A stretch of 64,000 nucleotides of DNA, taken from IMG/VR virus record IMGVR_UViG_3300032092_000001; one strand, given 5' to 3'. Shown here in pieces: positions 13,029-62,525 of this stretch. Numbering within the stretch: position 1 is the stretch's first letter; each line of letters starts with the position of its first letter. The position numbers were made by a program, and so were the translations under genes. Below the pieces are notes generated by a model. It did not search any database, had not been told where the DNA came from, and worked only from the letters and a program-made list of their open reading frames with translations. This DNA is from a virus (Duplodnaviria > Caudoviricetes).

Positions 13029-14522
13029 ATGTCAATCCATCGTTCATATTTTAAAAAAAACAATACACTTTTATATAACAGTTTTACCAACACTGGTAAA
13101 TCACCGTATACTGAATTGTATTTTGGGTCAGCTAACGACCAAATATCGTCAACAGGATTTAGCCGTTTTATTTTTGACATAGATTTTTCACAACTTGTTT
13201 CTAAAATACAAAACAAAGTAATTTCTACAGGATGTACGTCATTTTCATCAATGACACACACATTACGTATGACAAATACTTCTTCCTTTGACTCAGAATT
13301 ATTAAATTCAACAACTTCTTCAGGTAGAAGGAGAGCGACTTCATTTGATTTAATTTTATTCAGAATACCATTAACAAGTGGAAACACAGGAATTGCTCAA
13401 TCATGGGATGAGGGAGTTGGTTACGATTTTTACGACGTTCAAAGAACAATATCAAAACCAAATGGTTTATTATCACCGGTATTATTACCTGAAGACAAAT
13501 CATACTCACAACGACCATCCAATTGGTTTCAAACAACAACATTATCGGCTTGGACCCAACCTGGAATATATTCAAATACAAACACAGGTAACATAAATTA
13601 TTCAGGTTTAACTATTGTTGACACTCAACATTTTGAATTTGGTAATGAGGACATTGAGTTTGATATGACAAATGAAGTTAACCAATATCTAACAGGGTCT
13701 ACAACAGGTTTCACCGGATGGGGAGTTGCCTTTGTACCTGAATTAGAGAATATTACAGGATTAACCGAAAACTATTCAGTTGGATTTTTTACAAGACATA
13801 CTCAAACATTCTATGAACCATTTTTAGAAACTTCTTATGTTGATTTAATTGAAGATGATAGAAATGCGTTTTATTCCAACAAACAAAATAAATTATACCT
13901 TTATTCTTATATTAACGGTGATTTCCAAAGTTTAGATGAAAATCCAACAGTTGCTATTAGAGACTTATCTGACGATGTTGTAACAACACTAACAGGATGT
14001 CAAATAACAAAAGGTATTTATCAAGTCACAGTTTCCGCAATAACTGCAACTACCCCTTGTATGTTTACTGACACGTGGAGTAACTTAAAGTATAACGGAG
14101 CAACATTACCAACAATTACAAATGACTTAACTATTTTACCTTTCAGTGAATATTTCACATTAGGATATGAGAGTAAGGACCCTGTATTATACGGTTTTGA
14201 TTATTATGGAATTAAACAAAATGAAAGAATTTTAAACACCGAGATAAGAAAAGTTGGGGTAATAATTAAAAGAGCTTATACTGCAAATCAGTCAATTAAA
14301 CCAGTAAATGCTCAATATAGGATATACGTTAAACAAGGACAAACAGAAGTTCAAGTTCAAGACTGGACTCAAATAAATAGAAGTTCAAATGAATATTATT
14401 TCGTGTTTGATACCACAGATAAAATACCTAACGAGTATTTTGTTGATATTAAAGTGTATTCATCAGGTGAAGTTAATACTTATAAAAGAACATTACAGTT
14501 TCAAATAGTTGATAAGATATGA
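13029..14522 (+). CDS. Probable virion structural protein (beta-rich, Thr/Gly-rich)
   Basis: 497-aa ORF, TATTTAT 12 nt upstream, next to gp5-like gene. Confidence 0.45.
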   Translation: MSIHRSYFKKNNTLLYNSFTNTGKSPYTELYFGSANDQISSTGFSRFIFDIDFSQLVSKIQNKVISTGCTSFSSMTHTLRMTNTSSFDSELLNSTTSSGRRRATSFDLILFRIPLTSGNTGIAQSWDEGVGYDFYDVQRTISKPNGLLSPVLLPEDKSYSQRPSNWFQTTTLSAWTQPGIYSNTNTGNINYSGLTIVDTQHFEFGNEDIEFDMTNEVNQYLTGSTTGFTGWGVAFVPELENITGLTENYSVGFFTRHTQTFYEPFLETSYVDLIEDDRNAFYSNKQNKLYLYSYINGDFQSLDENPTVAIRDLSDDVVTTLTGCQITKGIYQVTVSAITATTPCMFTDTWSNLKYNGATLPTITNDLTILPFSEYFTLGYESKDPVLYGFDYYGIKQNERILNTEIRKVGVIIKRAYTANQSIKPVNAQYRIYVKQGQTEVQVQDWTQINRSSNEYYFVFDTTDKIPNEYFVDIKVYSSGEVNTYKRTLQFQIVDKI

Positions 14523-15025
14523 AAAAAATAAGATTAACTGAAAGTCAATTGGTTGGTATAATTAAACAATGTATTAACGAAGGCCAAAAAGAAATTGACT
14601 CAATTTTAGATAAGATAAATAAGGTAGGTGTTGACGGATTATCTAAAAAAGAAAAAGAGTACTTAGATTACCACGCCAACACTGGAGATTACCTAGATGA
14701 CGAGGAGTTGATTACTGCAAATGACAGAGTCCCCTCAGGGGAAATATGGGAATTTGATGGATTCCAAGGAATACCTAAAATGGAGTTTCAATATGAAACA
14801 ACTGAAGAGTCAGTGGATGAGATTATCCATACAGGTTTTTTAACAGTTTCAGATGAACCTTTTTATGGTGAGATATATTGTGATTCAGAAGGTAACTACT
14901 CTGTTTGTAATTTTGAATCTGATGAAGGTGTTAATCTATTTGAGCAATATGAAGGTTTAGAAAGAGAAATTGAGAGTTTTTTATCAATAATATGTAATGA
15001 TTTAAAAGGTGATTTAATGTCGTAA
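14519..15025 (+). CDS. Hypothetical acidic protein with shared N-terminal leader (MKKIRLTESQL...INE)
   Basis: Leader similar to those of 59116..59592 and 55776..56102. Confidence 0.7.
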   Translation: MKKIRLTESQLVGIIKQCINEGQKEIDSILDKINKVGVDGLSKKEKEYLDYHANTGDYLDDEELITANDRVPSGEIWEFDGFQGIPKMEFQYETTEESVDEIIHTGFLTVSDEPFYGEIYCDSEGNYSVCNFESDEGVNLFEQYEGLEREIESFLSIICNDLKGDLMS

Positions 15026-15029
15026 AATT

Positions 15030-15545
15030 ATGGAAAAGTTAATTAAAAAAATTTTAAAAGAAGAATCTGAAAGATATATGTTCTTCAGTAATTTAGAACA
15101 AATGAGAAGACAATGTAATTTGTTACTTGATTTAGATAAAGAAATGGTTGAGAATATCTTAAAGAACGGTCATGACTGGGCTCAGGACCACATTGCCGAA
15201 GCCAAAAATAATATGGACCAAGTATTTGATTTTTTAATGAATGAAACCAAAAGACAAGAGTTTGGACCATCTGAAGATGATATGATGTACGAAACAATGG
15301 ATTTTGAAGATTTAGCAATTGCCGATGAAACTGATGGAATGGACCCAAATAAAGCATTGGCAATGTCTATGATGGAAGGTAGAAAAAAGACTGGTACAAA
15401 GTTATGTTCTCGTGGTAAGTCAGCAGCAAAATCAAAATTCAAAGTTTACCCTTCAGCTTATGCGAACGGTTACGCCGTTCAAGTATGTAAGGGTAGAATG
15501 CCAGGTCTTGACGGGAAGAAAAAATGTTCGTCACCTTATTGTTAA
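15030..15545 (+). CDS. Hypothetical protein with basic Cys-containing C-terminal module (YPSAYANG)
   Basis: MEKLIKKILKE leader; LCSRGK...YPSAYANGYAVQVCKG module. Confidence 0.7.
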   Translation: MEKLIKKILKEESERYMFFSNLEQMRRQCNLLLDLDKEMVENILKNGHDWAQDHIAEAKNNMDQVFDFLMNETKRQEFGPSEDDMMYETMDFEDLAIADETDGMDPNKALAMSMMEGRKKTGTKLCSRGKSAAKSKFKVYPSAYANGYAVQVCKGRMPGLDGKKKCSSPYC

Positions 15546-15588
15546 TACCAAATATTTTTAATACATTTGTCTCATATTCATAAATGAA

Positions 15589-16014
15589 ATGGGACCAATA
15601 AAAAGAAACTACTACAAACTTCGTATATATTTACGAAATAAATTTAACGCACCTGAATACGTAATTGAGCAAAAGAAATATGAGTCTCTTTGTATTAACG
15701 TAGTTCAATCTTTAATACACGACCCATCCTCTATACTCATCTATACACCAAAGACGTTTAAATACTACATTAAAAACGAAAATTTGGGGGTATATGTTGT
15801 AATGATTGATGGAGTACTGTCAGTTACAAACCATAGATACTCCTATGAAATTAAAATCACACCAAAAAATGAAAGAAAATTGGCAAGAATTTTTGACGGT
15901 CAATTAGAAATTCGTGGTGAGAAATTTGATGCGGAAATGATTATCCAAATAAAAGAGTCATTAAGTGATATTTATAATAAAATAAATATTCACAATAAAA
16001 AAGACAATGAGTAA
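15589..16014 (+). CDS. Hypothetical protein
   Basis: 141-aa ORF preceded by TACATTTG (TAnnTTTG). Confidence 0.65.
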   Translation: MGPIKRNYYKLRIYLRNKFNAPEYVIEQKKYESLCINVVQSLIHDPSSILIYTPKTFKYYIKNENLGVYVVMIDGVLSVTNHRYSYEIKITPKNERKLARIFDGQLEIRGEKFDAEMIIQIKESLSDIYNKINIHNKKDNE

Positions 16015-16207
16015 AGTTAGCGACGTACAATTAAAGAAATTACTTAGAAAGAATTTAAATGAAAATTTCTCACAATTCACAATGTTTGAGAGACAAGAAA
16101 TTATTCAAGACGTTCTTGATAGAGTTGGTGAATACGGAATGGATTATGTAAAAGCACTTGCTGAACTTAACATGAATTTCCCATCAACAAAATATAAAAG
16201 AGGTTAA
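16007..16207 (+). CDS. Hypothetical protein (leader ...LRKNLNE)
   Basis: 66-aa ORF overlapping upstream stop. Confidence 0.6.
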   Translation: MSKVSDVQLKKLLRKNLNENFSQFTMFERQEIIQDVLDRVGEYGMDYVKALAELNMNFPSTKYKRG

Positions 16208-17145
16208 TCTAAATACTTTCTTATTAACTGAATTAAGACCGACTCGTTGGTCTTTTTCTTTTTATGACTAACCATTACAGGTTTATTACCCGTACCTGTC
16301 TTATTATGTTTCTTTTCGGCCCTTCTCTTTTGAGCACATGCTGATTTTTTCTGAGCGTCTGACATTTTACCCGCAACTCCCGCAGCTCTGCATTTTGGAT
16401 ACCCCTTTGAATGTGCTTCAGGTCTTCCACAAGGAGGATGTTTACCATCTTTATCTTTTCTACAAATATTAACCCACGGTCCCTTTGGTTGTTTACTACC
16501 TTTTGGTTTTTTCTTTGTCCCAAACCAAACCGCTAAATCTTCATTAATCGTATCAACTTCATGTGTTGGGATTTCATATCCGTCTTCAGGATGTTTTTCC
16601 CAAACTCCAACTGTTTTTTTAATATTATTTTTTAAAGTTTTTTGTTTTTTTGTTAAATTCACAGGATTATCTGAAAATTCGGTAAAAGGACCCAATTCAC
16701 TTTTTCTCCATTTTTTTAAACCAATTTCTAAAGGTCCATTGTACATTCCTGCGGTAATAGACGTATCAGCTTCGCTAACAAATGGTTTAGATATATTATT
16801 TTTAATACGAGTTTTATTAAAATATTGATTTAAAATATCACCGTCATCGTCATTTAATGACGGATGTTTTTCATTATATAAAGAAATCTTCTCAGCACTA
16901 ACTTCTTTTTTCCTCGCATCCACAGTTTCAATATCGCCATCTAAACTATCATAATTTAATTCCGCATCGTAATAGTTACTTAACTCATCTACAAATGGGG
17001 CTAATGTTTTGTTTTTCCAAATTTTTAAACCCGGACTTAAAGGAGCCCTATAATTACCAACATTTGATGTAACTGTCGCTTCATTTATTTCTCTTTCGTA
17101 CTTTAAATACTCTTCAAAAATTTTTAAAAGATTTTGATTATCCAT
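16204..17145 (-). CDS. Hypothetical multi-module late protein with basic Cys-containing C-terminal module
   Basis: Two similar modules (ATVTSNVGNYRAPL..GLKIWK / ADTSITAGMYNGPL..GLKKW) and a WF...PCGR...YPKC module, each after INE or VSE. Confidence 0.7.
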   Translation of the reverse strand: MDNQNLLKIFEEYLKYEREINEATVTSNVGNYRAPLSPGLKIWKNKTLAPFVDELSNYYDAELNYDSLDGDIETVDARKKEVSAEKISLYNEKHPSLNDDDGDILNQYFNKTRIKNNISKPFVSEADTSITAGMYNGPLEIGLKKWRKSELGPFTEFSDNPVNLTKKQKTLKNNIKKTVGVWEKHPEDGYEIPTHEVDTINEDLAVWFGTKKKPKGSKQPKGPWVNICRKDKDGKHPPCGRPEAHSKGYPKCRAAGVAGKMSDAQKKSACAQKRRAEKKHNKTGTGNKPVMVSHKKKKTNESVLIQLIRKYLD

Positions 17146-17489: not shown

Positions 17490-19319
17490 TTATCTCAATT
17501 CTCTTAAATCAAATGTACGTACTCCATCAACTGTGATACGTCCGTAGAAACGGTTGTTAACCATCTTCTTAGCGTAACGTGTCATGATACCTTTGATAGG
17601 TGTGAAGTTGAATGGGTTATACATAGTTGGAGTTAATTGTAGAGGTACGTATGGAGCGTAGATGTAACCAGTATCCAATAAAGATGTACCTTTGTGACCA
17701 ATCAAGATTGTATTTGGTGGGAAGTATGGGTCACGGTACACTTGGTAACGTCCACTCAATGTTCCAACTCTTTCAATACCCATGTTGTATTGGTCTTGCT
17801 CAGGAGCCGCGTTTGATACGTGGAAGTATTCCAAGTCATCAAAAATAGCACTGATTTCAGAAGAAACTACAATCCAGTTAGCTCCACCTCTTAAAGTAGA
17901 CTTGTGAATTTGAGCTGAGATTTGGTTAATCGCAGTAATCAAAGTCTGATTCCAGTCTTTTTGAGTGTATGGAGTAGCTTGGTTGTTCATTCTCTTCCAA
18001 CCGTTGTAATCCCAACGTAATGTCCAAGCCGCACCTTTACGTAAGTCACGTAAGATTTCACGGTCAATTTCTGCCGCAACTTGCTCAGACAATAATGCTG
18101 TCAATTCAGCTTCAGCGTCAATGTTGTGGAATGCCGCAACGTCTTGAGCTAATTCAGGAGACCATTGTGCTCTTAACTTTCTTTCAGTTACAGAAACTGT
18201 TACTGATTGTAAGTCAAAAGAAACTTCACCAATTTTGTCTTCAAATTCCAACTCTTCGTATCTCTTGAAGAATGCAGTAATTGGGTTAGTACCTGTAGTA
18301 CCTGTCATAGCCGCCGCACTAAATGTAATACCGCTATATCCATCAGGAGTTGCTCCACCACATGAAATACATGCTGGTACTTGAGTATCAACTTCTAAAT
18401 AAATAACACCATTAGCATCACATAAGTTATCATATGAACCACCATTACCTGAACCAGGCCATGATGCAGTTGCTTGAGAACCGTACTGAACGATACCTTG
18501 TCCGTATTTTTGAGTAACTACACGGAACAACAATGGAGTTGTTGTAGTAACACCCAAAGCACTTGCAAACGCTGAACTTGGTAACAATGTTAAATCAGAC
18601 AAAAATGCCTCATTATCCATTTCCTGTCCATCAGGACCAATCAATTTACCTGCTCCTGAGTTAGAGAAACCTGACATAGCTACAATAACTTTACGGTATT
18701 CCGCTCCACCATATGCAGATACAGACAATGAACCACCAGTCCATACAACTGTGTTAGTCACAGCAGATAACCACTGATAACGTCCTTTTGAATAGTCAAA
18801 TAAACCTGCTGGGTCTAAACCTGGCTCATTTCCTTCGTAGAATAAATCATACAAATTCTTAGCAATAGCTCCAGTGTCTGAATTATAACCAGCTTCTGAA
18901 GATGAAGGTCCGTTTGGTGCTCCGAATGGTGCGTAGTGACCATTACCATTACCATTTGCAACCGCTGGAGTCGCTCCAGTCCATCCTTGGATTTGAGGTA
19001 CAAAGTAGAACAATTTACCGATTGGTAAGTTCATAGCTTGTACTGATACGATTTCGTTAGCTAACAACTTAGAGAATACACGTCTGATGATTGGGAATAC
19101 AACCGTCTCAAAAGAACCTGAATCCGCAGTAGTTGCAGCTTCGTTAATCAAATGTGACGCTTGGTTTTCATACAACTGAGCTACATTTTCTTTTAGGTGG
19201 CCTTTAAGACCTTCTAGGAACCCTAATTTGTCCCATTTGTTTATAGTGTCTTCTTTGATAACTTTCAAGTGCTTAAGACCGATGTTACCTACTAATCCAC
19301 TTTCTAATAATGCTCCCAT
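17490..19319 (-). CDS. gp23: Major capsid protein, T4 gp23-like
   Basis: VFPIIRRVF, SVQAM..P.G..F, RKLRAQWSPELAQD, EIDREI, YAPYVPL, GIMTRYA; predicted maturation site LINE/A at E60. Confidence 0.95.
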   Translation of the reverse strand: MGALLESGLVGNIGLKHLKVIKEDTINKWDKLGFLEGLKGHLKENVAQLYENQASHLINEAATTADSGSFETVVFPIIRRVFSKLLANEIVSVQAMNLPIGKLFYFVPQIQGWTGATPAVANGNGNGHYAPFGAPNGPSSSEAGYNSDTGAIAKNLYDLFYEGNEPGLDPAGLFDYSKGRYQWLSAVTNTVVWTGGSLSVSAYGGAEYRKVIVAMSGFSNSGAGKLIGPDGQEMDNEAFLSDLTLLPSSAFASALGVTTTTPLLFRVVTQKYGQGIVQYGSQATASWPGSGNGGSYDNLCDANGVIYLEVDTQVPACISCGGATPDGYSGITFSAAAMTGTTGTNPITAFFKRYEELEFEDKIGEVSFDLQSVTVSVTERKLRAQWSPELAQDVAAFHNIDAEAELTALLSEQVAAEIDREILRDLRKGAAWTLRWDYNGWKRMNNQATPYTQKDWNQTLITAINQISAQIHKSTLRGGANWIVVSSEISAIFDDLEYFHVSNAAPEQDQYNMGIERVGTLSGRYQVYRDPYFPPNTILIGHKGTSLLDTGYIYAPYVPLQLTPTMYNPFNFTPIKGIMTRYAKKMVNNRFYGRITVDGVRTFDLRELR

Positions 19320-21153: not shown

Positions 21154-21873
21154 TTATTTTCCTAAATAATCGGAAAGTTTACTCATTAAATCAAGCGATT
21201 TGTTTAAACCTCTAGCCGCTTTTTCTTCTTTTTCTTCCTGAAGGTTTTCTTCGTACTTATATCTGTCATTCGGGTCCGAAAAAAGATATGCCCCAGGAGT
21301 TGACGGAGACGACACTAAGTCAAAACAGATTAATTCAAAATCATCTTGAACTTCATTTCTATCTCCAACTTTTTTTAATGAACCAACACCTCTTGATGAT
21401 ATACCTAATGTAACACCAAGTCTTAATAAGTTAGCCGCTTGGTCTCCTTTAGTTGATACAATTCCTCTCTCATGGAATCCTGGTGAAGTAAGTAATAATA
21501 ATTTACCTAATAGTACATTACCGTCCCACCACATATCTGTAATAATGTGAGATACTCTATCTAAGTCAATCAAAGAAGATTCAGGGTGATTTAGTTCGGA
21601 TAATGCAGTTTTTCTACCAATATAATTTTTCTTATAATTTTCTGACTCTCTCTTTAATATTCTTTCAGGATATATTCTACCATTTCTATTTGGGGTGTCG
21701 TATTTTTGAAGTACCGCATAAAACTCAAAAGGTTTTGAGTAATCTTTAAAATCTTTACTCTCTTGTAAAAATTTTAAATTATTCATCTCACTTGGGGATA
21801 CATACCCCGCATCCATTTCAATTAGAATTCCTCTACCAATCTCAGTTGGACCTAATATCTTATAATTTTGCAT
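21154..21873 (-). CDS. gp21: Prohead core protease, T4 gp21-like
   Basis: NRNGRIYP, ELNHP, VSH.I, GISSRGVGS, DLVSSPS.PGA. Confidence 0.92.
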   Translation of the reverse strand: MQNYKILGPTEIGRGILIEMDAGYVSPSEMNNLKFLQESKDFKDYSKPFEFYAVLQKYDTPNRNGRIYPERILKRESENYKKNYIGRKTALSELNHPESSLIDLDRVSHIITDMWWDGNVLLGKLLLLTSPGFHERGIVSTKGDQAANLLRLGVTLGISSRGVGSLKKVGDRNEVQDDFELICFDLVSSPSTPGAYLFSDPNDRYKYEENLQEEKEEKAARGLNKSLDLMSKLSDYLGK

Positions 21874-22471: not shown

Positions 22472-23182
22472 TTAGATATTTTGGTTTAACTTCCAAAGTT
22501 TAACATACTCATCTTTTGAAATAATAGTTTTTTGAATTCTATCTTTAGTTTCTGTAAGTCTTTTATTTAATTCCTCGTCAGATTCATTAATTAGATTATC
22601 TAATTTTGAAATTGTATTCTCTTTAAGTTCCTCAAATTTAACTTTAAGAGTTTTATCGTCAACTGAAATTACATCTAAAACTTTTTGTCTATCTGATTCT
22701 GTTAGTGTTTCAAGATATTTTTTAGCGGTGTTATTAGCGACTTTCAATAATGTACTGATTGGAACCTTCGGTGTCTTATTTTCTTTAATAACTGAAATTT
22801 TATTTAATGACTCAACAATCTCCTTTCTAGCAATTGATTTCTTTTCAGGTTTAATTGTGTCACCGTAAATTAAATCGTCTATTTTACTATACTTATTTTC
22901 CTTTACAACATCACTAGTCCAAGACTTAATAAATTTAATAGTATTCTCATTTAACTTAACTGAATTAAATTCTTTTACTAAATCATCAATTAAATAATTT
23001 GCTGACTCTTTATCCAAACCTTTATTTTCATTTAGATTATCGTAAACGCTCATCATTTTACAAAAATCTTTATTTTTCAATAACTTAGTATTTAATAGTC
23101 TCATATCCTCTTTCAAATTATTCTTTTTGAAAGATTCCACTAATTTTGACTCAACCAATGTTTTTATTACTCCGAATCTCAT
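22472..23182 (-). CDS. Hypothetical helical protein, possible prohead core component
   Basis: Position after portal; several LVE/LNE/IKE sites; TATTTAT upstream. Confidence 0.5.
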   Translation of the reverse strand: MRFGVIKTLVESKLVESFKKNNLKEDMRLLNTKLLKNKDFCKMMSVYDNLNENKGLDKESANYLIDDLVKEFNSVKLNENTIKFIKSWTSDVVKENKYSKIDDLIYGDTIKPEKKSIARKEIVESLNKISVIKENKTPKVPISTLLKVANNTAKKYLETLTESDRQKVLDVISVDDKTLKVKFEELKENTISKLDNLINESDEELNKRLTETKDRIQKTIISKDEYVKLWKLNQNI

Positions 23183-26998: not shown

Positions 26999-28276
26999 CT
27001 ATCCTATTCCTAAACTCTTTAAGAAGTCGTCCATGTCGTCGTCATCATCATCTTCACCACCTATAGCATCTTCAAAGTCTTGTTGTTGTAACTCGTCTTT
27101 AATTTCTTGAACCATGTTAGCGACCATTTTCTTACCTCTTGCACTTCCTGACATAATTTCTTTTGCCATTTTGAAGAACTCAGTCGGTGTTAATTCCGCA
27201 AATTTAACCATGAAATATTGTTGTAAGTTTTTCTTATCGTCTTCAAATAACTCATCAGGATAAGCTTCTCTGAATTTTTCCCAAATAACAGGACCTAATC
27301 TCATATCCCAAATCTCACCAACAATTGTATCTTCAGATTTAAGAACCGCTTCTTGTCTTCTTTTATCTTGAGGTAATCCGTAAGTACCAGCAATTTCCAT
27401 AACACCTTTTGCCAATTCGTGAATTAAAATTGGTAAGTTAACACCACGAGCCTTAACAGTTGGTGGGTCAGTTTTAGCATCAAGTTCAGATTTACCATAT
27501 GTTGCTTGACCGCTACCTGCCATTCCTTGTACCATTGAGTCCGGCATTAACCAATATAATGAATCGGCAAATGACATAAACACACCATAAAGATTCAATA
27601 ATCTTGGGTTGATAGCATTTAATTCTCTATTTAACAACTCAAACATATATGAGGACTTTTTAGCCGCTCCTTGAATCAACGAGTTAATAAATCTTCTTTT
27701 CGCCTTTTCTAAATCAAATTTTTCAAACGCATCCATGAAGTCGTCAAGTTCTTCTTCATTTTCACCAAACATATCTTCAACTTCTTCTTCAGATGGTTGT
27801 TCTCCTTTTTGTTTAAATCCTTCAGAGTCAATATCACCAGGTTTTGTTAACTTGGCATCAAATTGCAATGCCCCTTCAGGTATTCCAAATTCTTTCTTAA
27901 TCAACTCAACGGCTAATTCCTCAAGATATTCTTGGTTTTCACTTTCAATCTGAGCAATCTCCTGCATACCTCTCATCACCATCATCTGTAATTGCATCAT
28001 TGCATTTTGAGATGTAATGTCTTGCATTCCTGTATATCTTTTAAGATTATTAACTACGTCTTTAAATCTTTTAGACGCAATTAATTCCTCAAATGAAGAT
28101 GGTGTGTTAGGACCTTCAGGGGTAATTTCAGGGAAACCTTTCATTGATGAAAAAGGAGTTTCTTTCTTTTCTATTTTTGATTGGATATCCGGTGACATTT
28201 TTTCAGGTCCCTCATAATCAATCGGAGCCTCATTAAGTCTTCTTCGTAATCTATTAACTAAATCTGTCTTATTCAT
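26999..28276 (-). CDS. Hypothetical acidic late protein (leader ...RRRLNE)
   Basis: 425-aa ORF; contains ILIHELAKG (HE-like motif, second His absent). Confidence 0.7.
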   Translation of the reverse strand: MNKTDLVNRLRRRLNEAPIDYEGPEKMSPDIQSKIEKKETPFSSMKGFPEITPEGPNTPSSFEELIASKRFKDVVNNLKRYTGMQDITSQNAMMQLQMMVMRGMQEIAQIESENQEYLEELAVELIKKEFGIPEGALQFDAKLTKPGDIDSEGFKQKGEQPSEEEVEDMFGENEEELDDFMDAFEKFDLEKAKRRFINSLIQGAAKKSSYMFELLNRELNAINPRLLNLYGVFMSFADSLYWLMPDSMVQGMAGSGQATYGKSELDAKTDPPTVKARGVNLPILIHELAKGVMEIAGTYGLPQDKRRQEAVLKSEDTIVGEIWDMRLGPVIWEKFREAYPDELFEDDKKNLQQYFMVKFAELTPTEFFKMAKEIMSGSARGKKMVANMVQEIKDELQQQDFEDAIGGEDDDDDDMDDFLKSLGIG

Positions 28277-28280: not shown

Positions 28281-29282
28281 TTAATCTTCCTTTAATTTTA
28301 TATTCATAGTATCAAACTTCAAAAAGTTTGGCAACTCACCTTTAGGTGATGGGTCAGTGTTCGGAGCTGGTTTAAATGGACTCTTTCTTTGTGGTGTTGT
28401 AGTTTTTTCCTTTTCCTTTGTTCTTTCTTTTTCTTTAGTCTTAGAACCTTTAGGTGCCGGGTCAGTGTTTGGTGCCGGTTTGAACGGACTTTTTCTCTGA
28501 GGAGTAGTCGTCTTTTCCTTTTCTTTAGTTCTTTCTTTTTCTTTAGTCTTAGAGTCTTCAGAAATCATTTTTTGATTTTTAATTGTTTCAAGTAAATCTT
28601 TCTTTGACATTTTAGGTCTCAAAGCATTTTCAACTAATTCCTCCATTTTCATTTCCAAAATGAATTCAAACGGATTTTTACCTTCTTTAATTTTTTCTTT
28701 AACACCTAAAACACATTTTTCGTATTTGTCAGTTTGTTTTTTAGTCCACTCACTTCTTTCAGTGGTACCAAACTTTTCACCCATAGTTGAGGTACAAATC
28801 GCCCAAGGGTTTTTCTTTTTATTCTTTTTATTTTCCATAATTCTTGATTCAGCAGCAACTTTAACTGAGCCACCCTCATACCTACCTCCCATAGCTTCTG
28901 CGGCTTTTATTTTATCTTTATCGTTACCAAAATTATATTCTAAATAACTACCATCCTGATTAACAGTTCTACATGTAGAACCATCAAATTTATTACCTCC
29001 GATGCTGGTACAAATCACTTCACCTGCTGATGAAAAAGGATAAACAGTGTCCGCTTCTCCTAATTCGGCAGAAACCTTTATTTTTCCATCACTAGAAACT
29101 TCATTACCTGTTTTTTCTTTGTAAAGTTTTCTATCTTCTTCTTTACTTAAATCATATTCGGTAGTCGCCTCTTTTATTACTTTTCTGTAAAGCAAATTTA
29201 ATTGAGATTCTGTTAACTTACTTAAAGTTTTTTTACTAAATCCCTCATTTAACATTTTTTGAATTTTAATTTTTGTACTCAT
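28281..29282 (-). CDS. Hypothetical multi-module protein with tandem 36-aa basic repeat
   Basis: LTESQL...IKE leader-like segment; NPWAIC and YEKCV module; two copies of SKTKEKERTKEKEKTTTPQRKSPFKPAPNTDP(A/S)PKG. Confidence 0.7.
   Translation of the reverse strand: MSTKIKIQKMLNEGFSKKTLSKLTESQLNLLYRKVIKEATTEYDLSKEEDRKLYKEKTGNEVSSDGKIKVSAELGEADTVYPFSSAGEVICTSIGGNKFDGSTCRTVNQDGSYLEYNFGNDKDKIKAAEAMGGRYEGGSVKVAAESRIMENKKNKKKNPWAICTSTMGEKFGTTERSEWTKKQTDKYEKCVLGVKEKIKEGKNPFEFILEMKMEELVENALRPKMSKKDLLETIKNQKMISEDSKTKEKERTKEKEKTTTPQRKSPFKPAPNTDPAPKGSKTKEKERTKEKEKTTTPQRKSPFKPAPNTDPSPKGELPNFLKFDTMNIKLKED
28338..28553. repeat. Tandem 108-bp coding repeat (2 copies)
   Basis: 28338-28445 vs 28446-28553: 16 differing codons, 15 synonymous by manual alignment. 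Confidence 0.9.
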
Positions 29283-38836: not shown

Positions 38837-38951
38837 AATTAAATATGAATATTTTTTTGGTTAATGTCAACTTACAGATATAAATAATTAGAGAATTTTT
38901 TTTGACTAAAAAAGTTTGGTTTTTTGTCAATTAATATTTAATTTTGTTACT

Positions 38952-48877: not shown

Positions 48878-49474
48878 TTACCAATAACCTGGATATGTTT
48901 TTCCACCCCACAAATGTCCAAAACGATTAAGACGACATGCCCAATAACCTGCGGTCATTCTATCTTTCTTGTCTTTACAGTTATGTCTTGATGCAAACGC
49001 CTTACGAGCTTTAGGGTTAGATACTTTAGCGGTTAGACCACCCTTAACATCTCCAAATGATATTTTTTTAACTCTTCCTGTAGATGGGTTTTTAACGTAT
49101 ACTACATATTTTTTTCCACCACCTGTATTTCTTCTTGGTTTACCCAATTCCACTTTTTTACCATTATATTCCGCCTCATTAATAAATTCCTCAGATAATG
49201 GTATGTCTAAATAAACTTCTTTTCCACTTGATAATCTAACCTTTGCACCCAAATCGGTCTCAATTAATTCAACCTCTTCATCACTTAATTCAATATTACC
49301 ATTCTCATATAAATCACGAACTTCGTTAATTAAACTAAAGAAAGAATCGGAATGTGGACGATATATGTTTTCAGTTAATGGTATATTGTTTTTTAAATGG
49401 TAATTCAAACCTTCAGAAACTAATAATTCATTACTTTCCTTTAACACTTTTTTAATCAAATTATCAATTCTCAT
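48878..49474 (-). CDS. Hypothetical late protein with basic C-terminal module
   Basis: LIKKVLKE leader; INE/AEYNGKKV...KKISFGD...ARKAFASRHNC...YWACR. Confidence 0.7.
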   Translation of the reverse strand: MRIDNLIKKVLKESNELLVSEGLNYHLKNNIPLTENIYRPHSDSFFSLINEVRDLYENGNIELSDEEVELIETDLGAKVRLSSGKEVYLDIPLSEEFINEAEYNGKKVELGKPRRNTGGGKKYVVYVKNPSTGRVKKISFGDVKGGLTAKVSNPKARKAFASRHNCKDKKDRMTAGYWACRLNRFGHLWGGKTYPGYW

Positions 49475-50364: not shown

Positions 50365-51495
50365 TTATTGTCCTTTAGTCTTATATGATGACCAATTCTT
50401 CGCAATTTTTTCAGCTGTGGTCCTCGGTACTTCATTTCCAGGGACACTCCAATCACTACCTGAACCTCCGTATCTGTATCGATACGAATAATTTGGCCAT
50501 TTTTTAAAGTAATCTTGACATTTTGGTTCTTTTCCCGCTCCGTGATACTCATATTGGAAACACCAACGTGCGGTCTCATCACTCCACATACCCTTACCAA
50601 GTACAAAATCTGAATTTGAAACACTTTCACCTGCCAAATCACCTTCTTGTACAGGTATCCATCTTACTTTACCTGCAACTTGATTGTCATCACCATTTGA
50701 GTAATATACTGACGCATAATTAGGTTTCTGCACCTTACATCTATAAATCCCTTGAGCATCTGTTGCGAACCCATCCGCACAAAATGTGATAATTCTAGTA
50801 TGAGGCGCATTCCATGCCAATATTCTATACGGCTGAAATGAGTAAGTTTGACTTGATTTTGTTTCAACCTCACCTTTAGCTTGTATTGTTATAGTTACAA
50901 ATTGATATGGCTGATATTGAGGTTCCGTAGATTTATTAACATTAGGAGTATAATCAGGTCCCGCAAATGCTTGTGAGATATCGGTAATATATTTAACCTT
51001 ATCTAATGATATTCCTGGAATTGTAGATAAATAATTTTTAATTGAACTAAACGCAGTATCCGCTCTTTTTTGAGCTAAATCAATATTAAAGGCCTTTCTT
51101 TCTTCTTCGGTTTTTCCTGGTCCTGATTTTGAACTACCTGCGGTAACAATAACTTCGGTTTCAACATTTTTTAACCCCTGATTATTATACCAATTACTAA
51201 TTTTTGTTTTTTCATCATCTGTTAAACTCCATGGTTGTGACTTACCTGGAGCAAATTTAGTTTCGGCTTTTATAATCAAAGGTTTAACTTTAGATGTTTC
51301 ATTCCTAACTAATTTAGTTCCATCAGGAGAAATAAAAGTCCCAGGCGTTGGATTTGGTGGTTGATGTTGCTCATTTACCAACTCTGTATATTTTTTTTCA
51401 AGAACGTTAAAGTAATTAATTTCCGTTTTTTGATTTTCATGAAGAGAACGAATTTTTTCTTTTTCGTTTTCTGATATAATAATTCTTTTTCCCAT
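50365..51495 (-). CDS. OmpA-C-like domain protein with N-terminal leader and extra C-terminal domain
   Basis: FAPGKS, FNIDLAQKRADTA, YQFVTITI; start trimmed to MGKRIIISENEK. Confidence 0.55.
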   Translation of the reverse strand: MGKRIIISENEKEKIRSLHENQKTEINYFNVLEKKYTELVNEQHQPPNPTPGTFISPDGTKLVRNETSKVKPLIIKAETKFAPGKSQPWSLTDDEKTKISNWYNNQGLKNVETEVIVTAGSSKSGPGKTEEERKAFNIDLAQKRADTAFSSIKNYLSTIPGISLDKVKYITDISQAFAGPDYTPNVNKSTEPQYQPYQFVTITIQAKGEVETKSSQTYSFQPYRILAWNAPHTRIITFCADGFATDAQGIYRCKVQKPNYASVYYSNGDDNQVAGKVRWIPVQEGDLAGESVSNSDFVLGKGMWSDETARWCFQYEYHGAGKEPKCQDYFKKWPNYSYRYRYGGSGSDWSVPGNEVPRTTAEKIAKNWSSYKTKGQ

Positions 51496-51523: not shown

Positions 51524-52129
51524 TTAATTAGTCCAAATATTAATTTCAACCCATTGGTCATTTAAATATTTTGGGTCCTGTGGGTTATCAACACCTTGTT
51601 TATAAGGTATTGAACCTTGTTTATATCTCCCACTTACTGATGACATTCCTTTTGGCCAAGATGGTAACTTTTCTAATTGACTTCTAAAGTAATCTCCAAG
51701 TGTCCCCCCTCTTTTTTGAGATAAAGTATTAACATCTGAACCTGTCTTAGGAGTCTGTGACTCTGAAGCCACCCAACTAATTTGAAATGGTTTGTTTGAT
51801 TTCGATAAATATTCTTTAGCCTTTGTTAAAAAGTTTTGAACTTCCTGAAAGTTTCTAATGGAATCTTTATCAAGTCCTGTTTTACCCGTATTAAAATAAA
51901 ATTTATTATTTAACTTTAAAACATCTTTTAGATTTTGTTTACTAGCAGCCGATGACGTGCCGGTCTTAACATCCACACTTGTGTTTGGCGTTACCGGTCC
52001 TCCAGTTGACGGGGGGTCCGTTTCATTAATTTGGGACTCTGAAATCAAATATCCATTTTTTGTTGCGGACAAATGCATTTCAATAATTCGTTGTCTTTCA
52101 CTATCGTCAATTGTAAATAAATTTTTCAT
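51524..52129 (-). CDS. OmpA-C-like domain protein with N-terminal leader, paralog of neighbour
   Basis: FNTGKTGL, NTLSQKRG, DQWVEINI; start trimmed to MKNLFTIDDSER. Confidence 0.55.
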   Translation of the reverse strand: MKNLFTIDDSERQRIIEMHLSATKNGYLISESQINETDPPSTGGPVTPNTSVDVKTGTSSAASKQNLKDVLKLNNKFYFNTGKTGLDKDSIRNFQEVQNFLTKAKEYLSKSNKPFQISWVASESQTPKTGSDVNTLSQKRGGTLGDYFRSQLEKLPSWPKGMSSVSGRYKQGSIPYKQGVDNPQDPKYLNDQWVEINIWTN

Positions 52130-55779: not shown

Positions 55780-56102
55780 TAAACTTGTATTGTTCTTTGT
55801 GGTCTGTCATCACCAAAATCAGGACAGAAATATACATTTACTCCGTCGTGATAGATTGCACCACCAACACCATTAGGTATCTTGTGTTTCTCATGGAATT
55901 TATCACCTAAGTCAATTTGATAATTTCCATCAGCAACTTTTATACACTTATTTTCCATTTCGTAACCACAATGATATTGTTGGTTTTTATTTTTATGTTT
56001 CATAAATTCATCAAATGACATTACAAATGATGCATTTTCATTCATTACTTTTTTAACAACTTTTCCTAATTGTCTTTCTGTTATCAAAATATTCTTTTTC
56101 AT
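55776..56102 (-). CDS. Hypothetical late protein with leader (MKKNILITERQL...MNE)
   Basis: TATTTAT 6 nt upstream. Confidence 0.65.
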   Translation of the reverse strand: MKKNILITERQLGKVVKKVMNENASFVMSFDEFMKHKNKNQQYHCGYEMENKCIKVADGNYQIDLGDKFHEKHKIPNGVGGAIYHDGVNVYFCPDFGDDRPQRTIQVY

Positions 56103-59115: not shown

Positions 59116-59592
59116 TTAAAATCTTACAGGTGGTACCACAACAGTTCCTCCACCGCCACAAGGACATCCGCATTTCTTTTGCCAATATGACGGCCATTTA
59201 CATGGATTAGCACAAGTAGACGCACAATTTCCAGGTGCAATATCTTCTTTTACATCTCCATCGCGTTGTAATCTTTTTTTCTTTCTTTGTTCTCCGATTT
59301 CACCACCATTATCGTTAGATTGCATGTCTTTAATTGCTGACATCATTTCTTTCGCCTCTTTTTTCTTACCTGACTTCATTAATTCTTTAGCGTATGCTTT
59401 AAGGATGTCATACCCGGCAATACCTAATAAACCAATTGTAGTTCCAACAATTGTTAAAATTGCATCACCTGTTTCCAACGCTACCGGTAAATACTCCTGC
59501 TCATTTACTGATTTTTTTCTTTTTGTTTCAGTTACCAAATTTTTGATTAAATCTGTTAATTCAGATTCTGTTAGTCTTATTTTCTTTTTCAT
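59116..59592 (-). CDS. Hypothetical protein with leader, hydrophobic helix and Cys-rich tail
   Basis: MKKKIRLTESEL...VTE; AILTIVGTTIGLLGIAG; CASTCANPC...CGCPC. Confidence 0.7.
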   Translation of the reverse strand: MKKKIRLTESELTDLIKNLVTETKRKKSVNEQEYLPVALETGDAILTIVGTTIGLLGIAGYDILKAYAKELMKSGKKKEAKEMMSAIKDMQSNDNGGEIGEQRKKKRLQRDGDVKEDIAPGNCASTCANPCKWPSYWQKKCGCPCGGGGTVVVPPVRF

Positions 59593-59593
59593 T

Positions 59594-60520
59594 TTATATA
59601 TTATTACAACATTTAGTCTTATTTAATAAATACTTAGATAGTTCACTTTGGTATAAAAAACCTTCATTTGTTTTTCTTTTTTCCTTACTATTTTTTTGGA
59701 AATATTTAAACACCACTCTACCACAATCATATATTACATACGATTTTTCATTACTTTCAACGTCAGTCATTTCCATTTCAACAGTTAAATAATCATCTTC
59801 CTGAATATACGTAGCGTTTACAACTTTAAAAATTTTTGGTTCTTTAATTTTCCTATCTTCAAAAATATAAGTTTTACCAATTAAAAATTCTAATTCTGAC
59901 GGTACCTCTACAATCTTGTCTAATTCTAATGTTAATATTTCCTTATCTTTATTCTCTTTAAATTTATCGTCTATCACATATTGTTTGTCAGTATATCCGT
60001 CTTTAGTTATTATAATATTAAAGTCGTAGGTACTGTCAAATTTAACTTTCCCATCACTGTTAGTTTTTAAAGTCACATCCTCACCTAATTTATTTTTTGT
60101 TTGTATAACACACTCAGGTAGTGGGGACTTAGACACCGAGTCAACAATCAGTAAATCAAATTGGTTTACCCGTATTTCAAGTGTTTTCAATGACAATGAA
60201 TCTTTAAGTGTCACATTAATTTCAGTTTCGTCAATTTTAGGAGTAATTTCTTGAGGCTCCATTCCAACAAATGTTACGTTTACTGAAGGTCCAACAAAAT
60301 TGTTTAAGATTCCAATTCCATTTACATCCGTCACCGCTCCGTTTGTCCTGTCTCCAGAATCAATCACCGTAACAAATTCTAATGGTTTATTACGTTCATC
60401 AAAAACTTTAATTTTTAATGTTCTTTTTTCCTCAAATAAATATTGCTTATTTAACGCATTAATATGCATTTCTAAAATTCTATCTCTTTCTTCAGATGAA
60501 ATCTCAAATAAATTTTTCAT
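59594..60520 (-). CDS. Protein with leader and two carboxypeptidase-regulatory (SusC-N-like) domains
   Basis: KVFDERNKPLEFVTV...GAVTDVNG...VTFVGM and IVDSVSKSPLPECVI...TNSDG...KDGY. Confidence 0.65.
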   Translation of the reverse strand: MKNLFEISSEERDRILEMHINALNKQYLFEEKRTLKIKVFDERNKPLEFVTVIDSGDRTNGAVTDVNGIGILNNFVGPSVNVTFVGMEPQEITPKIDETEINVTLKDSLSLKTLEIRVNQFDLLIVDSVSKSPLPECVIQTKNKLGEDVTLKTNSDGKVKFDSTYDFNIIITKDGYTDKQYVIDDKFKENKDKEILTLELDKIVEVPSELEFLIGKTYIFEDRKIKEPKIFKVVNATYIQEDDYLTVEMEMTDVESNEKSYVIYDCGRVVFKYFQKNSKEKRKTNEGFLYQSELSKYLLNKTKCCNNI

Positions 60521-61007: not shown

Positions 61008-61008
61008 T

Positions 61009-61035: not shown

Positions 61036-61076
61036 TTACACTAATTAGTATTTATTAACTATAGATAAAAAGTTTA

Positions 61077-61691: not shown

Positions 61692-61877
61692 TTAATTCAT
61701 TAGTCCTGACATTTCGTTAACAATCACACCTTGTTTCATTTGTAATTGTCTAATACGACTATTTTGAGATTCATTCATCTCCAAACTTTCACCTTTAATT
61801 GACGCTATTTGGTTAGATAATTTATCAAATTCTGATAAAAGATATTGGTATCTTTGAGCTTTTTGTTCGTAATTCAT
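61692..61877 (-). CDS. Hypothetical coiled-coil protein
   Basis: 61-aa ORF. Confidence 0.6.
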   Translation of the reverse strand: MNYEQKAQRYQYLLSEFDKLSNQIASIKGESLEMNESQNSRIRQLQMKQGVIVNEMSGLMN

Positions 61878-61912
61878 TCTAAATTATAATCATTTGTTTA
61901 TATAAATAAACA

Positions 61913-62218
61913 TTACTTTTCACATTCCGATGCGTGACTATATACCTCAAATGGAAATGGTATCATAGATTTTAAATATTCTTTAACATTATCTCTAATA
62001 TACCCTGAACGTAATGATGACCAATTATCATTCAATACCCATTCCTTGTTTAATAGGGTATACACATCAAAAATTGAATCTTCCTCGTCAATTCTATCTT
62101 CATTTAGAAACGCTCTAAAACCACAAATTCTATCATCAGATGAAAAATAACTATTAAGTTGTTCTTCCACCTTTCTGATGATTTTTTTACTTTGTTCTTG
62201 TGTGATTTTATATTTCAT
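61913..62218 (-). CDS. Hypothetical protein (MKYKITQEQ leader-like start)
   Basis: Similar layout to 62223..62525 (ICGF/ICKF, ends in C). Confidence 0.65.
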   Translation of the reverse strand: MKYKITQEQSKKIIRKVEEQLNSYFSSDDRICGFRAFLNEDRIDEEDSIFDVYTLLNKEWVLNDNWSSLRSGYIRDNVKEYLKSMIPFPFEVYSHASECEK

Positions 62219-62222
62219 TAAA

Positions 62223-62525
62223 TTAACATTTGTCAGAATAAGGTAATATTGTCAAATAAATATCATACTTATCTTGTATAAAATTTATAGAATCTTTAAT
62301 TAAAGATTTTAATTCTTCTTTACCCTCAAAACCTTTTTTACTCATTTTACTATTAACCCATTTCTTATCAATTCTAAGTTTAACAGTTGGGTTAATGTCA
62401 AAATCTTCATCAGGAATTACCTCAAATTTACAAATCTCATATCTGTTATGAAATTCTTTATTTAAATCTGAGACAATACCGATAAGTATTTTATTTTTTT
62501 GAGATTCGGTGATTACAAGTTTCAT
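62223..62525 (-). CDS. Hypothetical protein (MKLVITESQ leader-like start)
   Basis: Probable distant paralog of 61913..62218. Confidence 0.65.
   Translation of the reverse strand: MKLVITESQKNKILIGIVSDLNKEFHNRYEICKFEVIPDEDFDINPTVKLRIDKKWVNSKMSKKGFEGKEELKSLIKDSINFIQDKYDIYLTILPYSDKC

What the first reader, a model, noticed from the sequence alone, without database searches (positions are those of the whole stretch)
14519..62525. About 20 unrelated late proteins share N-terminal leaders, most ending in prohead-protease-like sites: candidate large capsid-cargo system
Seen, four leader types. A: MKKIRLTESQL..IIK..INE (14519, 59592, 56102, 47997, 62525, 62218, internal in 29282). B: MKNLF.IS.EER.RI.EMH (60520, 52129, 51495, 46594). 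C: L.EEI.R...LM....(I/L)xE (57834, 42675, 45050, 37504, 30882). D: LIKK(I/V)LKE (15030, 49474, 28276, 52653). Most end in (I/L/V/M)-x-E, like the predicted MCP site LINE/A at E60. Downstream domains are unrelated: PPK2-lysozyme, M15 peptidase, OmpA-like, SusC-N-like, membrane proteins. Nearly all follow the late motif or sit in late operons. Known: T4 internal proteins carry a capsid-targeting leader (MKTYQEFIAE) removed by gp21 after (I/L)-x-E and are injected with DNA. Inference: this phage packages a much larger, modular cargo set, with leaders acting as shuffled address tags.
Basis: partly seen in the sequence, partly recalled or inferred. Interest (0 to 1): 0.85.

Follow-up and report, generated by a model that had tools for sequence, protein, structure and literature searches.

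The report
Shared leader tags on phage proteins
An uncultured ~300-kb T4-like phage, probably of Bacteroidota, puts one of two conserved 20-30-residue N-terminal tags on about ten unrelated late proteins in this window; the tags most likely load these proteins into the capsid and are then cut off by the head protease, as T4 does for a few proteins, but this rests on sequence comparison only.

Summary
Partly confirmed. Ten of the roughly 20 listed proteins carry a statistically solid shared leader:
- Type A (M-K-K-x-I-K-L-T-E-S-D-L-x-R-I-V-K-K-V-L-x-E): 14519, 59592, 56102, and internally in 29282.
- Type B: 60520, 52129, 51495, 46594.

The other claims (47997, 62525, 62218, most of C, 52653) are not supported as family members.

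The bare statement that most leaders end in (I/L/V/M)-x-E is close to chance. The support for processing comes from elsewhere:
- The only two invariant residues of leader A are glutamates, each in an [IL]-x-E context.
- The capsid protein propeptide is packed with such sites and ends in a conserved LINE|A.
- Two head-module families have hypervariable N-terminal extensions that always end in [IL]-x-E.
- The phage has a T4 gp21-type protease.
- Leader genes sit behind the late-promoter motif.

Leader A occurs in 6,566 protein clusters worldwide, almost only in viral contigs. Complete relatives carry 12-24 A or B leader genes each.

Best reading: a T4-style capsid-targeting propeptide system, enlarged and with a longer tag (about 0.55). 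No virion data exist.

This scan has noted similar leader systems before on other DNA and in neighbouring windows of this genome.

The parts
14519..14581 (+). Leader A, 21 aa ending INE|G, on a 168-aa protein (DUF6576 helix plus a beta domain)
   Evidence: HMM E 1e-11. In the orthologue alignment E8 and E21 are invariant and there is an indel right after E21. AF2 gives a low-confidence helix at 8-20, a break at 21-23 and a body with pLDDT about 90. Translation checked.
59527..59592 (-). Leader A, 22 aa ending VTE|T, on a 158-aa protein with a hydrophobic segment
   Evidence: HMM E 2e-7; pair score 62 with 14519.
56037..56102 (-). Leader A, 22 aa ending MNE|N, on a 108-aa protein
   Evidence: HMM E 4e-5 to 5e-9. 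The late motif lies 6 nt upstream.
29169..29282 (-). 38-aa N-terminal region of a scaffold-like, cleavage-site-rich protein. It contains an internal A-like module (KLTESQL..VIKE|A).
   Evidence: HMM E 0.003. The module is conserved in 78 orthologues. The protein has 3.3 [IL]xE sites per 100 aa against a mean of 1.66.
15030..15062 (+).
   Evidence: Orthologues in relatives carry a full A leader before the same body. The C-terminal domain matches phrog_27331.
49436..49474 (-). Half-A leader, 13 aa ending LKE|S (marginal)
   Evidence: HMM E 0.09-0.2; pair score 43 with 15030.
60431..60520 (-). Leader B, about 30 aa, on a 308-aa protein with a weak CarboxypepD_reg match
   Evidence: HMM E 1e-11; late motif 10 nt upstream.
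52037..52129 (-). Leader B, about 31 aa, on a 201-aa protein
   Evidence: HMM E 1e-13; late motif 16 nt upstream.
51436..51495 (-). Leader B, 20 aa ending LHE|N, on a 376-aa protein (OmpA-like, lead only)
   Evidence: HMM E 3e-10; late motif 19 nt upstream.
46535..46594 (-). Leader B on a 154-aa Cys-containing protein
   Evidence: HMM E 9e-12; orthologue in L166; late motif 14 nt upstream.
17080..17145 (-).
   Evidence: In 53 homologues the extension runs from 6 to about 30 aa. It can be minimal, half-A or B type, but it always ends in [ILV]-x-E followed by A/G/S-T.
28229..28276 (-). 16-aa extension ending LNE|APIDY on a 425-aa protein beside the terminase gene
   Evidence: In 79 orthologues the extension runs from 6 to about 50 aa and always ends in [IL]-x-E before a conserved (A/Q)-(P/I)-(I/D)-Y-G.
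30772..30882 (-). 37-aa conserved N-terminal region ending INE|SSS on a 405-aa protein
   Evidence: (I/L/V)-N-E then S/T/D/N is kept in nearly all of 80 orthologues.
42595..42675 (-). Rare 'C' dialect (..EEIKRLHEIMGV..ILE|S) on a 489-aa protein
   Evidence: Found on one orthologue (L166) and on one different, 258-aa protein (L181) in 3.2 Mb of related DNA.
19140..19319 (-). Predicted 60-aa propeptide of the major capsid protein, ending LINE|A
   Evidence: MCP identified by phrog_138 and T4 gp23. The junction is conserved in relatives, with a variable stretch after it. There are 5 [IL]xE sites in 60 aa against 3 in the other 549 (p 0.003).
21154..21873 (-). Prohead protease, homologue of T4 gp21
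   Evidence: phrog_207 E 3e-44; PDB 5JBL E 3e-18. H96, S160 and an N-terminal ILIE19 are invariant in 19 relatives. T4 gp21 has LIE-9 (PMC9026906).
19356..20819 (-). Scaffold-position protein (487 aa) between the protease and MCP genes
   Evidence: Assigned by gene order. The late motif lies 15 nt upstream. It has no family match.
22472..23182 (-). 236-aa protein between the portal and protease genes, the richest in [IL]xE sites (candidate core protein)
   Evidence: 4.66 sites per 100 aa against a mean of 1.66; conserved in relatives.

Best explanation
The window comes from a roughly 300-kb T4-like myovirus. About ten unrelated late proteins here (12-24 per complete genome in relatives) begin with a portable tag of type A or B. 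Each tag is a short hydrophobic stretch followed by an S/T-x-x-E cap and an amphipathic helix.

Inferred mechanism: the tag binds the scaffolding core of the prohead, so the attached protein is built into the capsid. The gp21-type protease then cuts after Glu in [IL]-x-E. In leader A these are L6-T7-E8 and h19-x-E21. The cut frees the mature protein, which stays in the head and probably leaves with the DNA.

What is shown:
- The tags are real, specific to the N-terminus, and shuffled among unrelated bodies.
- They end in conserved [IL]-x-E sites.
- The protease and MCP propeptide have T4-like features.
- The tagged genes lie behind the late promoter.

What is inferred: targeting, cleavage and injection.
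For: 1. T4-type head module: MCP, gp21-like protease, portal and TerL.

2. Protease specificity, inferred from the phage's own substrates:
- The MCP propeptide holds 5 [IL]xE sites in 60 aa against 3 in the other 549 (p 0.003), and ends at a conserved LINE|A.
- The protease keeps ILIE19, the counterpart of T4 gp21's LIE-9.

3. Leader A: the only invariant residues among 19-34 diverse copies are E8 and E21, with L/I at position 6 and L/I/V/M at position 19. In the 14519 family, indels fall right after E21. AF2 breaks the helix at 21-23.

4. Two head-module families (17145 and 28276) have N-terminal extensions of 6 to about 50 aa of several kinds: minimal M-K-K-I-K-E, half-A, or B. All end in [IL]-x-E before a conserved start of the body. 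This is what a disposable propeptide looks like.

5. The tags behave like signal peptides. A heads 13 body families and B heads 11 in 928 kb, with no hits in reversed or shuffled controls.

6. Late expression:
- ATATTTAT is the top upstream 8-mer in complete relative G010: 71 genes against 3.2 expected.
- It precedes the terminase, protease, scaffold, sheath and tube genes, but not the DNA polymerase or RNR genes.
- It precedes 15 of 24 leader genes against 72 of 373 others (p 1e-5).
- In the window it lies 4-37 nt upstream of 22 gene starts.

7. Virus specificity:
- Five complete relatives of 296-322 kb each have 10-18 A leaders and 2-6 B leaders, and one protease of this family.

8. T4 precedent: 10-19-residue propeptides target unrelated internal proteins to the core and are removed by gp21. 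Alt is cut at ITE-6 and also C-terminally (PMC9026906, PMC5694885, PMC3012670).
Against: - There is no virion proteome, no N-terminal sequence and no cultured relative. Nothing was found in 50,697 deposited phage records.
- Bare [ILVM]-x-E is nearly as common inside proteins as in leaders.
- Leader B has no strictly conserved terminal site: E20 in 18 of 23 copies, then a Y-L-x-(x)-E.
- The module also sits at C-termini, sometimes without the final Glu, and between domains. So it is a position-independent helix rather than only a leader.
- Two loci are true Bacteroidota chromosomal contexts, and no gp21-like protease was detected anywhere in the four MAG genomes searched, which include these two.
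- Some tagged proteins have hydrophobic or membrane-type segments.
- There is no detectable sequence similarity to the T4 CTS.
Confidence: 0.55

Rival explanations
1. The module is a portable docking helix for some other late partner, not the prohead core. One candidate is the ClpB/ClpC-like double AAA+ ATPase that this phage clade conserves near the head genes, which could recognise terminal tags for unfolding, delivery or turnover. Another possibility is a self-association or coiled-coil element. On this reading the module need not be removed.
For: - The module occurs at N-termini, at C-termini and between domains. Some C-terminal copies lack the final Glu.
- It occurs in two genuine bacterial chromosomal contexts; the four MAG genomes searched, which include these two, show no gp21-like protease.
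- A ClpB-like ATPase (32214-34253) is conserved at 67-75% identity in all five complete relatives, 12-15 kb from the protease gene.
- AAA+ unfoldases are known to read short terminal tags (general knowledge).
Against: - It does not explain why the only invariant residues of leader A are two Glu in [IL]-x-E contexts.
- It does not explain why orthologues replace the long tag by a 6-8-residue M-K-K-I-K-E that keeps only the site.
- It does not explain why head-module proteins and a scaffold-like protein carry the module.
- No test links the tag to the ATPase.
Confidence: 0.2
2. Mixed case. [IL]-x-E processing is real for the core head-module proteins (MCP, 17145, 28276, 30882, 29282). The long A and B tags on the many small accessory proteins serve another purpose, and those proteins are not packaged.
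For: - The strongest junction evidence comes from head-module families.
- Accessory tagged genes lie in tandem arrays far from the head genes.
- Tagged bodies include cell-wall-type domains and membrane segments, which could act at lysis.
Against: - The same A and B tags appear on the head-module families themselves. One 17145-family member carries a B leader. The YMFF and 14519 families next to the MCP gene carry A.
- The accessory genes share the late promoter.
Confidence: 0.12
3. The tag is a recognition sequence for a modifying enzyme, in the manner of RiPP precursors or radical-SAM clients. An earlier follow-up in this scan argued this for a different phage tag.
For: - Some multi-module proteins elsewhere carry repeated tags between small Cys-rich segments. 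This recalls multi-core precursors.
Against: - There is no radical-SAM domain in the complete relative G010, while the control search hit 14 of 14 reference genomes.
- Tags sit on enzymes and structural-module proteins of 100-600 aa.
- No enzyme gene is consistently adjacent in 928 kb of related loci.
Confidence: 0.03
4. The resemblances are compositional chance in an AT-rich, Lys/Glu/Ile-rich proteome, plus a few paralogues.
For: - This holds for part of the list. Types C and D score no better than internal segments.
- 62525 and 62218 are adjacent paralogues.
- Bare [ILVM]-x-E is near chance.
Against: - For A and B there are 0 hits in reversed or shuffled ORFs, against 19-36 and 18-24 real hits.
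- 6,566 clusters match at library-wide E<=1e-3.
- The hits are strictly N-terminal.
Confidence: 0.03

Closest known systems
Phage T4 capsid targeting sequence (CTS) of internal proteins IPI/IPII/IPIII and Alt, removed by prohead protease gp21
   Same: - An N-terminal propeptide on otherwise unrelated proteins.
- It ends in (L/I)-x-E.
- The genome encodes a gp21 homologue.
- The MCP and the protease carry matching sites.
- The tagged genes are late and sit in variable gene arrays.
- The first 8-9 residues of leader A (M-K-K-x-x-L-T-E) have the size and form of a T4 CTS or of Alt's ITE-6 propeptide (PMC9026906, PMC5694885).
   Different: - The tag is 21-31 residues with two sub-sites and a predicted helix, not 10.
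- There is no detectable sequence similarity to the T4 CTS.
- There are two main dialects plus half forms.
- A genome carries 12-24 tagged genes instead of about 4-8.
- Copies also occur at C-termini and between domains.
- Nothing has been verified experimentally.
Processed head and ejection proteins of giant phages phiKZ, 201phi2-1 and SPN3US
   Same: - Large capsids hold many different internal proteins.
- Propeptides are cut after Glu by a protease related to gp21.
- Propeptides contain several sites.
- N-termini are shared between diverged paralogues (PMC5694885).
   Different: - The motif there is A/S/G-x-E, not I/L-x-E.
- The propeptides are long and not a common portable tag.
- The lineage and head module are different.
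Encapsulin cargo-loading peptides
   Same: A short portable peptide at either terminus directs unrelated cargo into an HK97-fold shell (my own knowledge, not tested here).
   Different: - Encapsulin peptides bind the shell protein directly and are not cleaved.
- There is no scaffold or protease.
- There is no sequence relation.
- The binding partner here is unknown.
Sec/lipoprotein signal peptides on phage proteins in the same loci
   Same: They form N-terminal clusters on unrelated bodies in the same analysis, which gives an internal yardstick.
   Different: The A and B tags are charged and amphipathic, not hydrophobic, so they are not export signals.

Membership tests
T4-type capsid targeting propeptide (CTS) system | A short N-terminal peptide shared by proteins whose mature parts are unrelated | tested here: met
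   A heads 13 body families and B heads 11. Hits start at Met. Reversed and shuffled controls give 0.
T4-type capsid targeting propeptide (CTS) system | The peptide ends in the prohead-protease site (L/I)-x-E | tested here: met
   Leader A has E21 invariant with L/I/V/M at P3, and E8 invariant with L/I at P3. Leader B meets this only in part (E20 in 18 of 23 copies).
T4-type capsid targeting propeptide (CTS) system | The genome encodes a gp21-family prohead protease with catalytic residues | tested here: met
   phrog_207 and PDB 5JBL match. His96 and Ser160 are invariant in 19 relatives. There is one copy in each of 5 complete relatives.
T4-type capsid targeting propeptide (CTS) system | The MCP and core proteins carry the same site and are processed | tested here: inconclusive
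   Site enrichment in the MCP propeptide and a conserved LINE|A. Core-like proteins are site-rich. Processing itself was not observed.
T4-type capsid targeting propeptide (CTS) system | Tagged proteins are found in proheads or virions with the tag removed | not testable with these tools
   There is no cultured relative and no proteome.
T4-type capsid targeting propeptide (CTS) system | Sequence relation to the T4 CTS (M-K-T-Y-Q-E-F-I-A-E, as quoted in the finding) | tested here: not met
   By inspection only the M-K start and the terminal hydrophobic-x-E are shared, and the tag is 21-31 aa. The system works like a CTS, but homology of the tag is not shown.
Giant-phage (phiKZ/SPN3US) propeptides | Cleavage motif A/S/G-x-E | tested here: not met
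   P3 is L/I/V/M in leader A, in the MCP and in the junction families.
RiPP-like or radical-SAM client tag | A maturase (radical SAM/SPASM) gene co-occurs with tagged genes | tested here: not met
   No PF04055 match in complete relative G010, while the control hit 14 of 14 genomes.
Pfam/PHROG families | The tag is covered by a curated model | tested here: not met
   No Pfam or PHROG model matches the leader region of window proteins or of multi-module proteins.

The most novel reading that the evidence does not exclude
The 21-residue A module (with B as a sister dialect) is a position-independent cargo-loading peptide of a large group of uncultured jumbo T4-like phages. It works at the N-terminus, at the C-terminus or between domains. 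Phages therefore build multi-cargo precursor polyproteins, which the prohead protease cuts apart inside the capsid at flanking [IL]-x-E sites. With 6,566 protein clusters, the tag would amount to a ready-made catalogue of the proteins these phages inject, including cell-wall enzymes, membrane-active segments and Cys-rich mini-domains.
Probability: 0.3. Interest if true: 0.8.

Novelty: new variant of a known kind. Interest (0 to 1): 0.6.

Why it matters
If the tags do load proteins into the capsid, a simple profile search lists the injected-protein repertoire of an abundant, uncultured group of ~300-kb freshwater phages. That means 12-24 genes per genome and thousands of families overall. Such proteins are the first to meet the host and are prime candidates for counter-defence and cell-envelope functions.

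It would also show that the T4 CTS principle scales to dozens of cargoes. It would show that the principle uses a longer, structured tag with two sites, possibly in polyprotein form.

Finally, it would supply a natural tag for packaging foreign proteins in phages of Bacteroidota.

Tried and rejected
- Complex prediction of the protease (alignment A4) with leader A (alignment A1) gave no verdict: score 0.00, controls not run. This is neither support nor evidence against.
- Profile-profile comparison of A and B was not significant (probability 5.5%). Hybrids exist in other contigs, but common origin is not shown.
- A word-based search of the 5.8-billion-protein set with residues 1-40 of a leader protein found only orthologues.
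- tblastn of leader segments against 50,697 deposited phage records found nothing meaningful. Full-text search for the motif strings found no relevant paper.
A narrower alignment worked.
- PDB sequence searches of three bodies and a Foldseek PDB search of the 14519 model gave no match.
- A mobile DNA cassette (promoter plus first codons copied as DNA) was considered and rejected, because synonymous codons differ between copies.
- Export signal was rejected, because the tags are charged rather than hydrophobic.

Full report
WHAT THE WINDOW IS

The window is AT-rich (GC about 0.30) and carries a T4-type head module on the minus strand:
- major capsid protein, 17490-19319 (phrog_138; T4 gp23 in the PDB at E 5e-24)
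- a 487-aa scaffold-position protein, 19356-20819
- prohead protease, 21154-21873 (phrog_207; T4 gp21 structure 5JBL at E 3e-18)
- portal, 23203-25044
- large terminase, 25198-26940

No whole genome is held. More than 596 IMG/VR contigs encode an MCP 75-82% identical to this one. Five complete relatives are 296-322 kb long. The nearest cultured phages share only a few percent of the DNA; these are Flavobacterium phage immuto and the cyanomyoviruses. Genes lack Shine-Dalgarno-like spacing, and the few cellular look-alikes are Bacteroidota. I therefore read the host as Bacteroidota, which is an inference.

CHECKING THE OBSERVATION

All listed coordinates are real ORF starts. An unbiased all-against-all comparison shows that the first 30 residues give more high-scoring pairs than internal 30-residue segments: 12 pairs at a score of 35 or more, against 4 and 3. 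Nearly all the excess comes from types A and B.

Profiles made only from the window's seeds recover 19 (A) and 18 (B) ORFs at E<=1e-3. This is among 6,940 ORFs of the window plus 80 related loci. None are recovered from the same ORFs reversed or shuffled.

After iteration, 33 of 37 A matches start within two residues of an ATG, and all B matches are N-terminal. With body homology excluded, A heads 13 unrelated families and B heads 11. Classical hydrophobic signal peptides form smaller clusters in the same analysis. Codons differ between copies (AGT against TCT for Ser, TTA against CTA for Leu), so selection acts on the peptide, not on a DNA cassette.

Window membership:
- Type A: 14519, 59592, 56102, plus the internal copy in 29282.
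- Type B: 60520, 52129, 51495, 46594.
- Type D is the second half of A. 15030 is the orthologue of proteins that carry the full A leader before the same body. 49474 is marginal.
- Not supported as members: 47997, 62525, 62218, 57834, 45050, 37504, 52653.
- 42675 has a rare dialect of its own.

THE CLEAVAGE-SITE CLAIM

A bare [ILVM]-x-E occurs in residues 6-45 of 48 of 70 proteins, and in 35 of 70 over the next 40 residues. The case rests on conservation instead.

First, the only invariant residues of leader A across diverse bodies are E8 and E21. Position 6 is L or I, and position 19 is L, I, V or M. That makes two [IL]-x-E sites. In the 14519 family, insertions fall immediately after E21. The AF2 model has a low-confidence helix at 8-20, a break at 21-23 and a confident body.

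Second, the MCP propeptide has five [IL]-x-E sites in 60 residues, against three in the remaining 549 (p 0.003). It ends in LINE|A, which is conserved in relatives and followed by a variable stretch.

Third, the protease keeps an N-terminal ILIE19, the counterpart of the LIE-9 noted for T4 gp21.

Fourth, two head-module families give comparative evidence: the protein encoded next to the MCP gene (16204-17145) and the 425-aa protein beside the terminase gene (26999-28276). Their N-terminal extensions vary from 6 to about 50 residues. They may be minimal (M-K-K-I-K-E), half-A or B type. They always end in [IL]-x-E before a conserved start of the body. That is the signature of a disposable propeptide with a conserved cut site.

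The proteins at 22472-23182 and 28281-29282 are two- to three-fold enriched in such sites, as expected for core proteins that are degraded. This last point is inference.

EXPRESSION CLASS

ATATTTAT lies 4-37 nt upstream of 22 gene starts in the window. These include the scaffold and terminase genes and 12 of the claimed leader genes.

In the complete relative G010:
- It is the most enriched upstream 8-mer: 71 genes against 3.2 expected.
- It precedes the terminase, protease, scaffold, sheath, tube and baseplate-type genes, but not the DNA polymerase or ribonucleotide reductase genes.
- It precedes 15 of 24 A or B leader genes against 72 of 373 others (odds ratio 7, p 1e-5).

DISTRIBUTION

A 30-column profile of leader A finds 6,566 cluster representatives at library-wide E<=1e-3 among 1.84 billion proteins. 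No Pfam or PHROG model covers it.

In 185,579 cellular species genomes the corresponding scan gives 8 loci. Flavobacterium phage immuto and a 642-kb huge phage have none. Five complete relatives have 10-18 A and 2-6 B leader ORFs each, often in tandem arrays of genes of 90-180 codons, and one protease of this family.

COMPLICATIONS

Among the 150 best global hits, 147 have an N-terminal module. But 58 have two or three modules, with 51 internal and 14 C-terminal copies. One protein starts with a B leader and has three internal A modules. Relatives of the window show the same thing:
- fusions of the 17145-family protein with an internal A module and a second body (L014; G010 at 141671)
- C-terminal copies, one with Asp in place of E21

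In T4, Asp at the last CTS position blocks processing but not targeting, and Alt is trimmed at both ends. These forms are therefore compatible with a targeting helix flanked by cut sites, but they were not predicted by the simple leader model.

Two of the eight cellular loci are true chromosomal contexts: a Prevotellaceae polysaccharide-utilisation locus beside an IS1595 transposase, and a Bacteroidota locus between CysRS and PolA. No gp21-like protease was detected in the four MAG genomes searched, which include these two. The others are short phage-like contigs binned into MAGs. They carry a gut dialect with an inserted E-S, and one of these contigs also encodes a terminase-like ORF, recognised by eye only.

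RIVALS

It finds no radical-SAM gene in complete relative G010, while the control search hit 14 of 14 genomes.

A docking helix for another partner cannot be excluded. The clade conserves a ClpB/ClpC-like double AAA+ ATPase near the head genes. This rival does not explain the invariant Glu sites or the minimal leaders.

The protease-leader complex prediction returned no verdict.

COMPARISON WITH WHAT IS KNOWN

The system works like the T4 CTS. In T4, unrelated internal proteins share only a 10-19-residue propeptide that takes them into the core and is removed by gp21 (PMC3012670, PMC9026906, PMC5694885). The review by Black's colleagues already suggests that the CTS is a general way for T4-like phages to package varied proteins.

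The differences here:
- tag length and structure
- two sub-sites within the tag
- several dialects
- scale: 12-24 genes per genome and thousands of families
- internal and C-terminal copies

Homology of the tag to the T4 CTS is not shown. I rate this a new variant of a known kind.

This scan has noted similar leader systems on other DNA and in neighbouring windows of this genome. I did not use those notes as evidence.

VERDICT

- Observation: partly confirmed.
- Interpretation: partly supported.
- Best explanation (capsid-targeting propeptides cut by the gp21-type protease): 0.55.
- Interest: 0.6.

Noticed in passing
window 32214-34253 (+) and 34271-35089 (-): The phage encodes a ClpB/ClpC-like double AAA+ ATPase (AAA, AAA_lid_9, AAA_2, ClpB_D2-small) next to an M42/M20-like peptidase. 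The ATPase is conserved at 67-75% identity in all five complete relatives. In G012 it is split by an insertion of about 1.6 kb near residue 70.
   Followed up: partly
window, 22 sites such as 20842 (-), 26953 (-), 56116 (-); relative G010 genome-wide: ATATTTAT lies 4-37 nt upstream of start codons and is the dominant upstream motif. It marks virion genes, so it is a candidate late promoter that differs from T4's TATAAATA.
   Followed up: yes
L168:5995-6594 and L171 around 5971-6141: Small ORFs with the A-type tag (gut dialect ..L-T-E-S-D-L-H-K-I-V-K-E-S-V..) sit in genuine Bacteroidota chromosomal contexts. One is beside an IS1595 transposase in a polysaccharide-utilisation locus. The other lies between the CysRS and PolA genes.
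   Followed up: partly
P0029, P0030, P0035, P0046, P0048, P0170 (global hits); L163: These proteins have two or three A modules separating small, often Cys-rich segments. One starts with a B leader. They look like precursor polyproteins.
   Followed up: partly
window 15030-15545 (+), residues 122-165: The C-terminal Cys/Lys-rich domain (phrog_27331) also occurs in Pelagibacter and Prochlorococcus podophages, in one case beside the scaffolding gene. Residues 16-69 match a 642-kb uncultured phage (LR756502).
   Followed up: partly
window 56116-57834 (-): A polyphosphate kinase 2 is fused to a phage lysozyme in one 572-aa protein, with the late motif 5 nt upstream. Its N-terminus is not a member of the A or B leader families.
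   Followed up: partly
window 58005-58832 (+), 60576-61007 (+), 49795-50337 (+), 46661-47167 (+): Accessory genes lie among the leader genes: a truncated class II aaRS-like protein (tRNA-synt_2), an FKBP-type prolyl isomerase, a CAP-family protein with a signal peptide, and a dTDP-sugar epimerase-like cupin. The contig that carries P0030 also holds a 272-aa tRNA-synt_2 gene.
   Followed up: no
window 38317-38393 (-) and 38916-39443 (+): A tRNA-Arg(TCT) gene and an HNH endonuclease gene lie in a gene-poor stretch between the two late gene blocks.
   Followed up: no
window 695-8158 (+): A run of overlapping ORFs upstream of the baseplate or fibre-type genes looks by eye like glycosyltransferases. 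It was not checked here and was noted by another reader of this genome.
   Followed up: no
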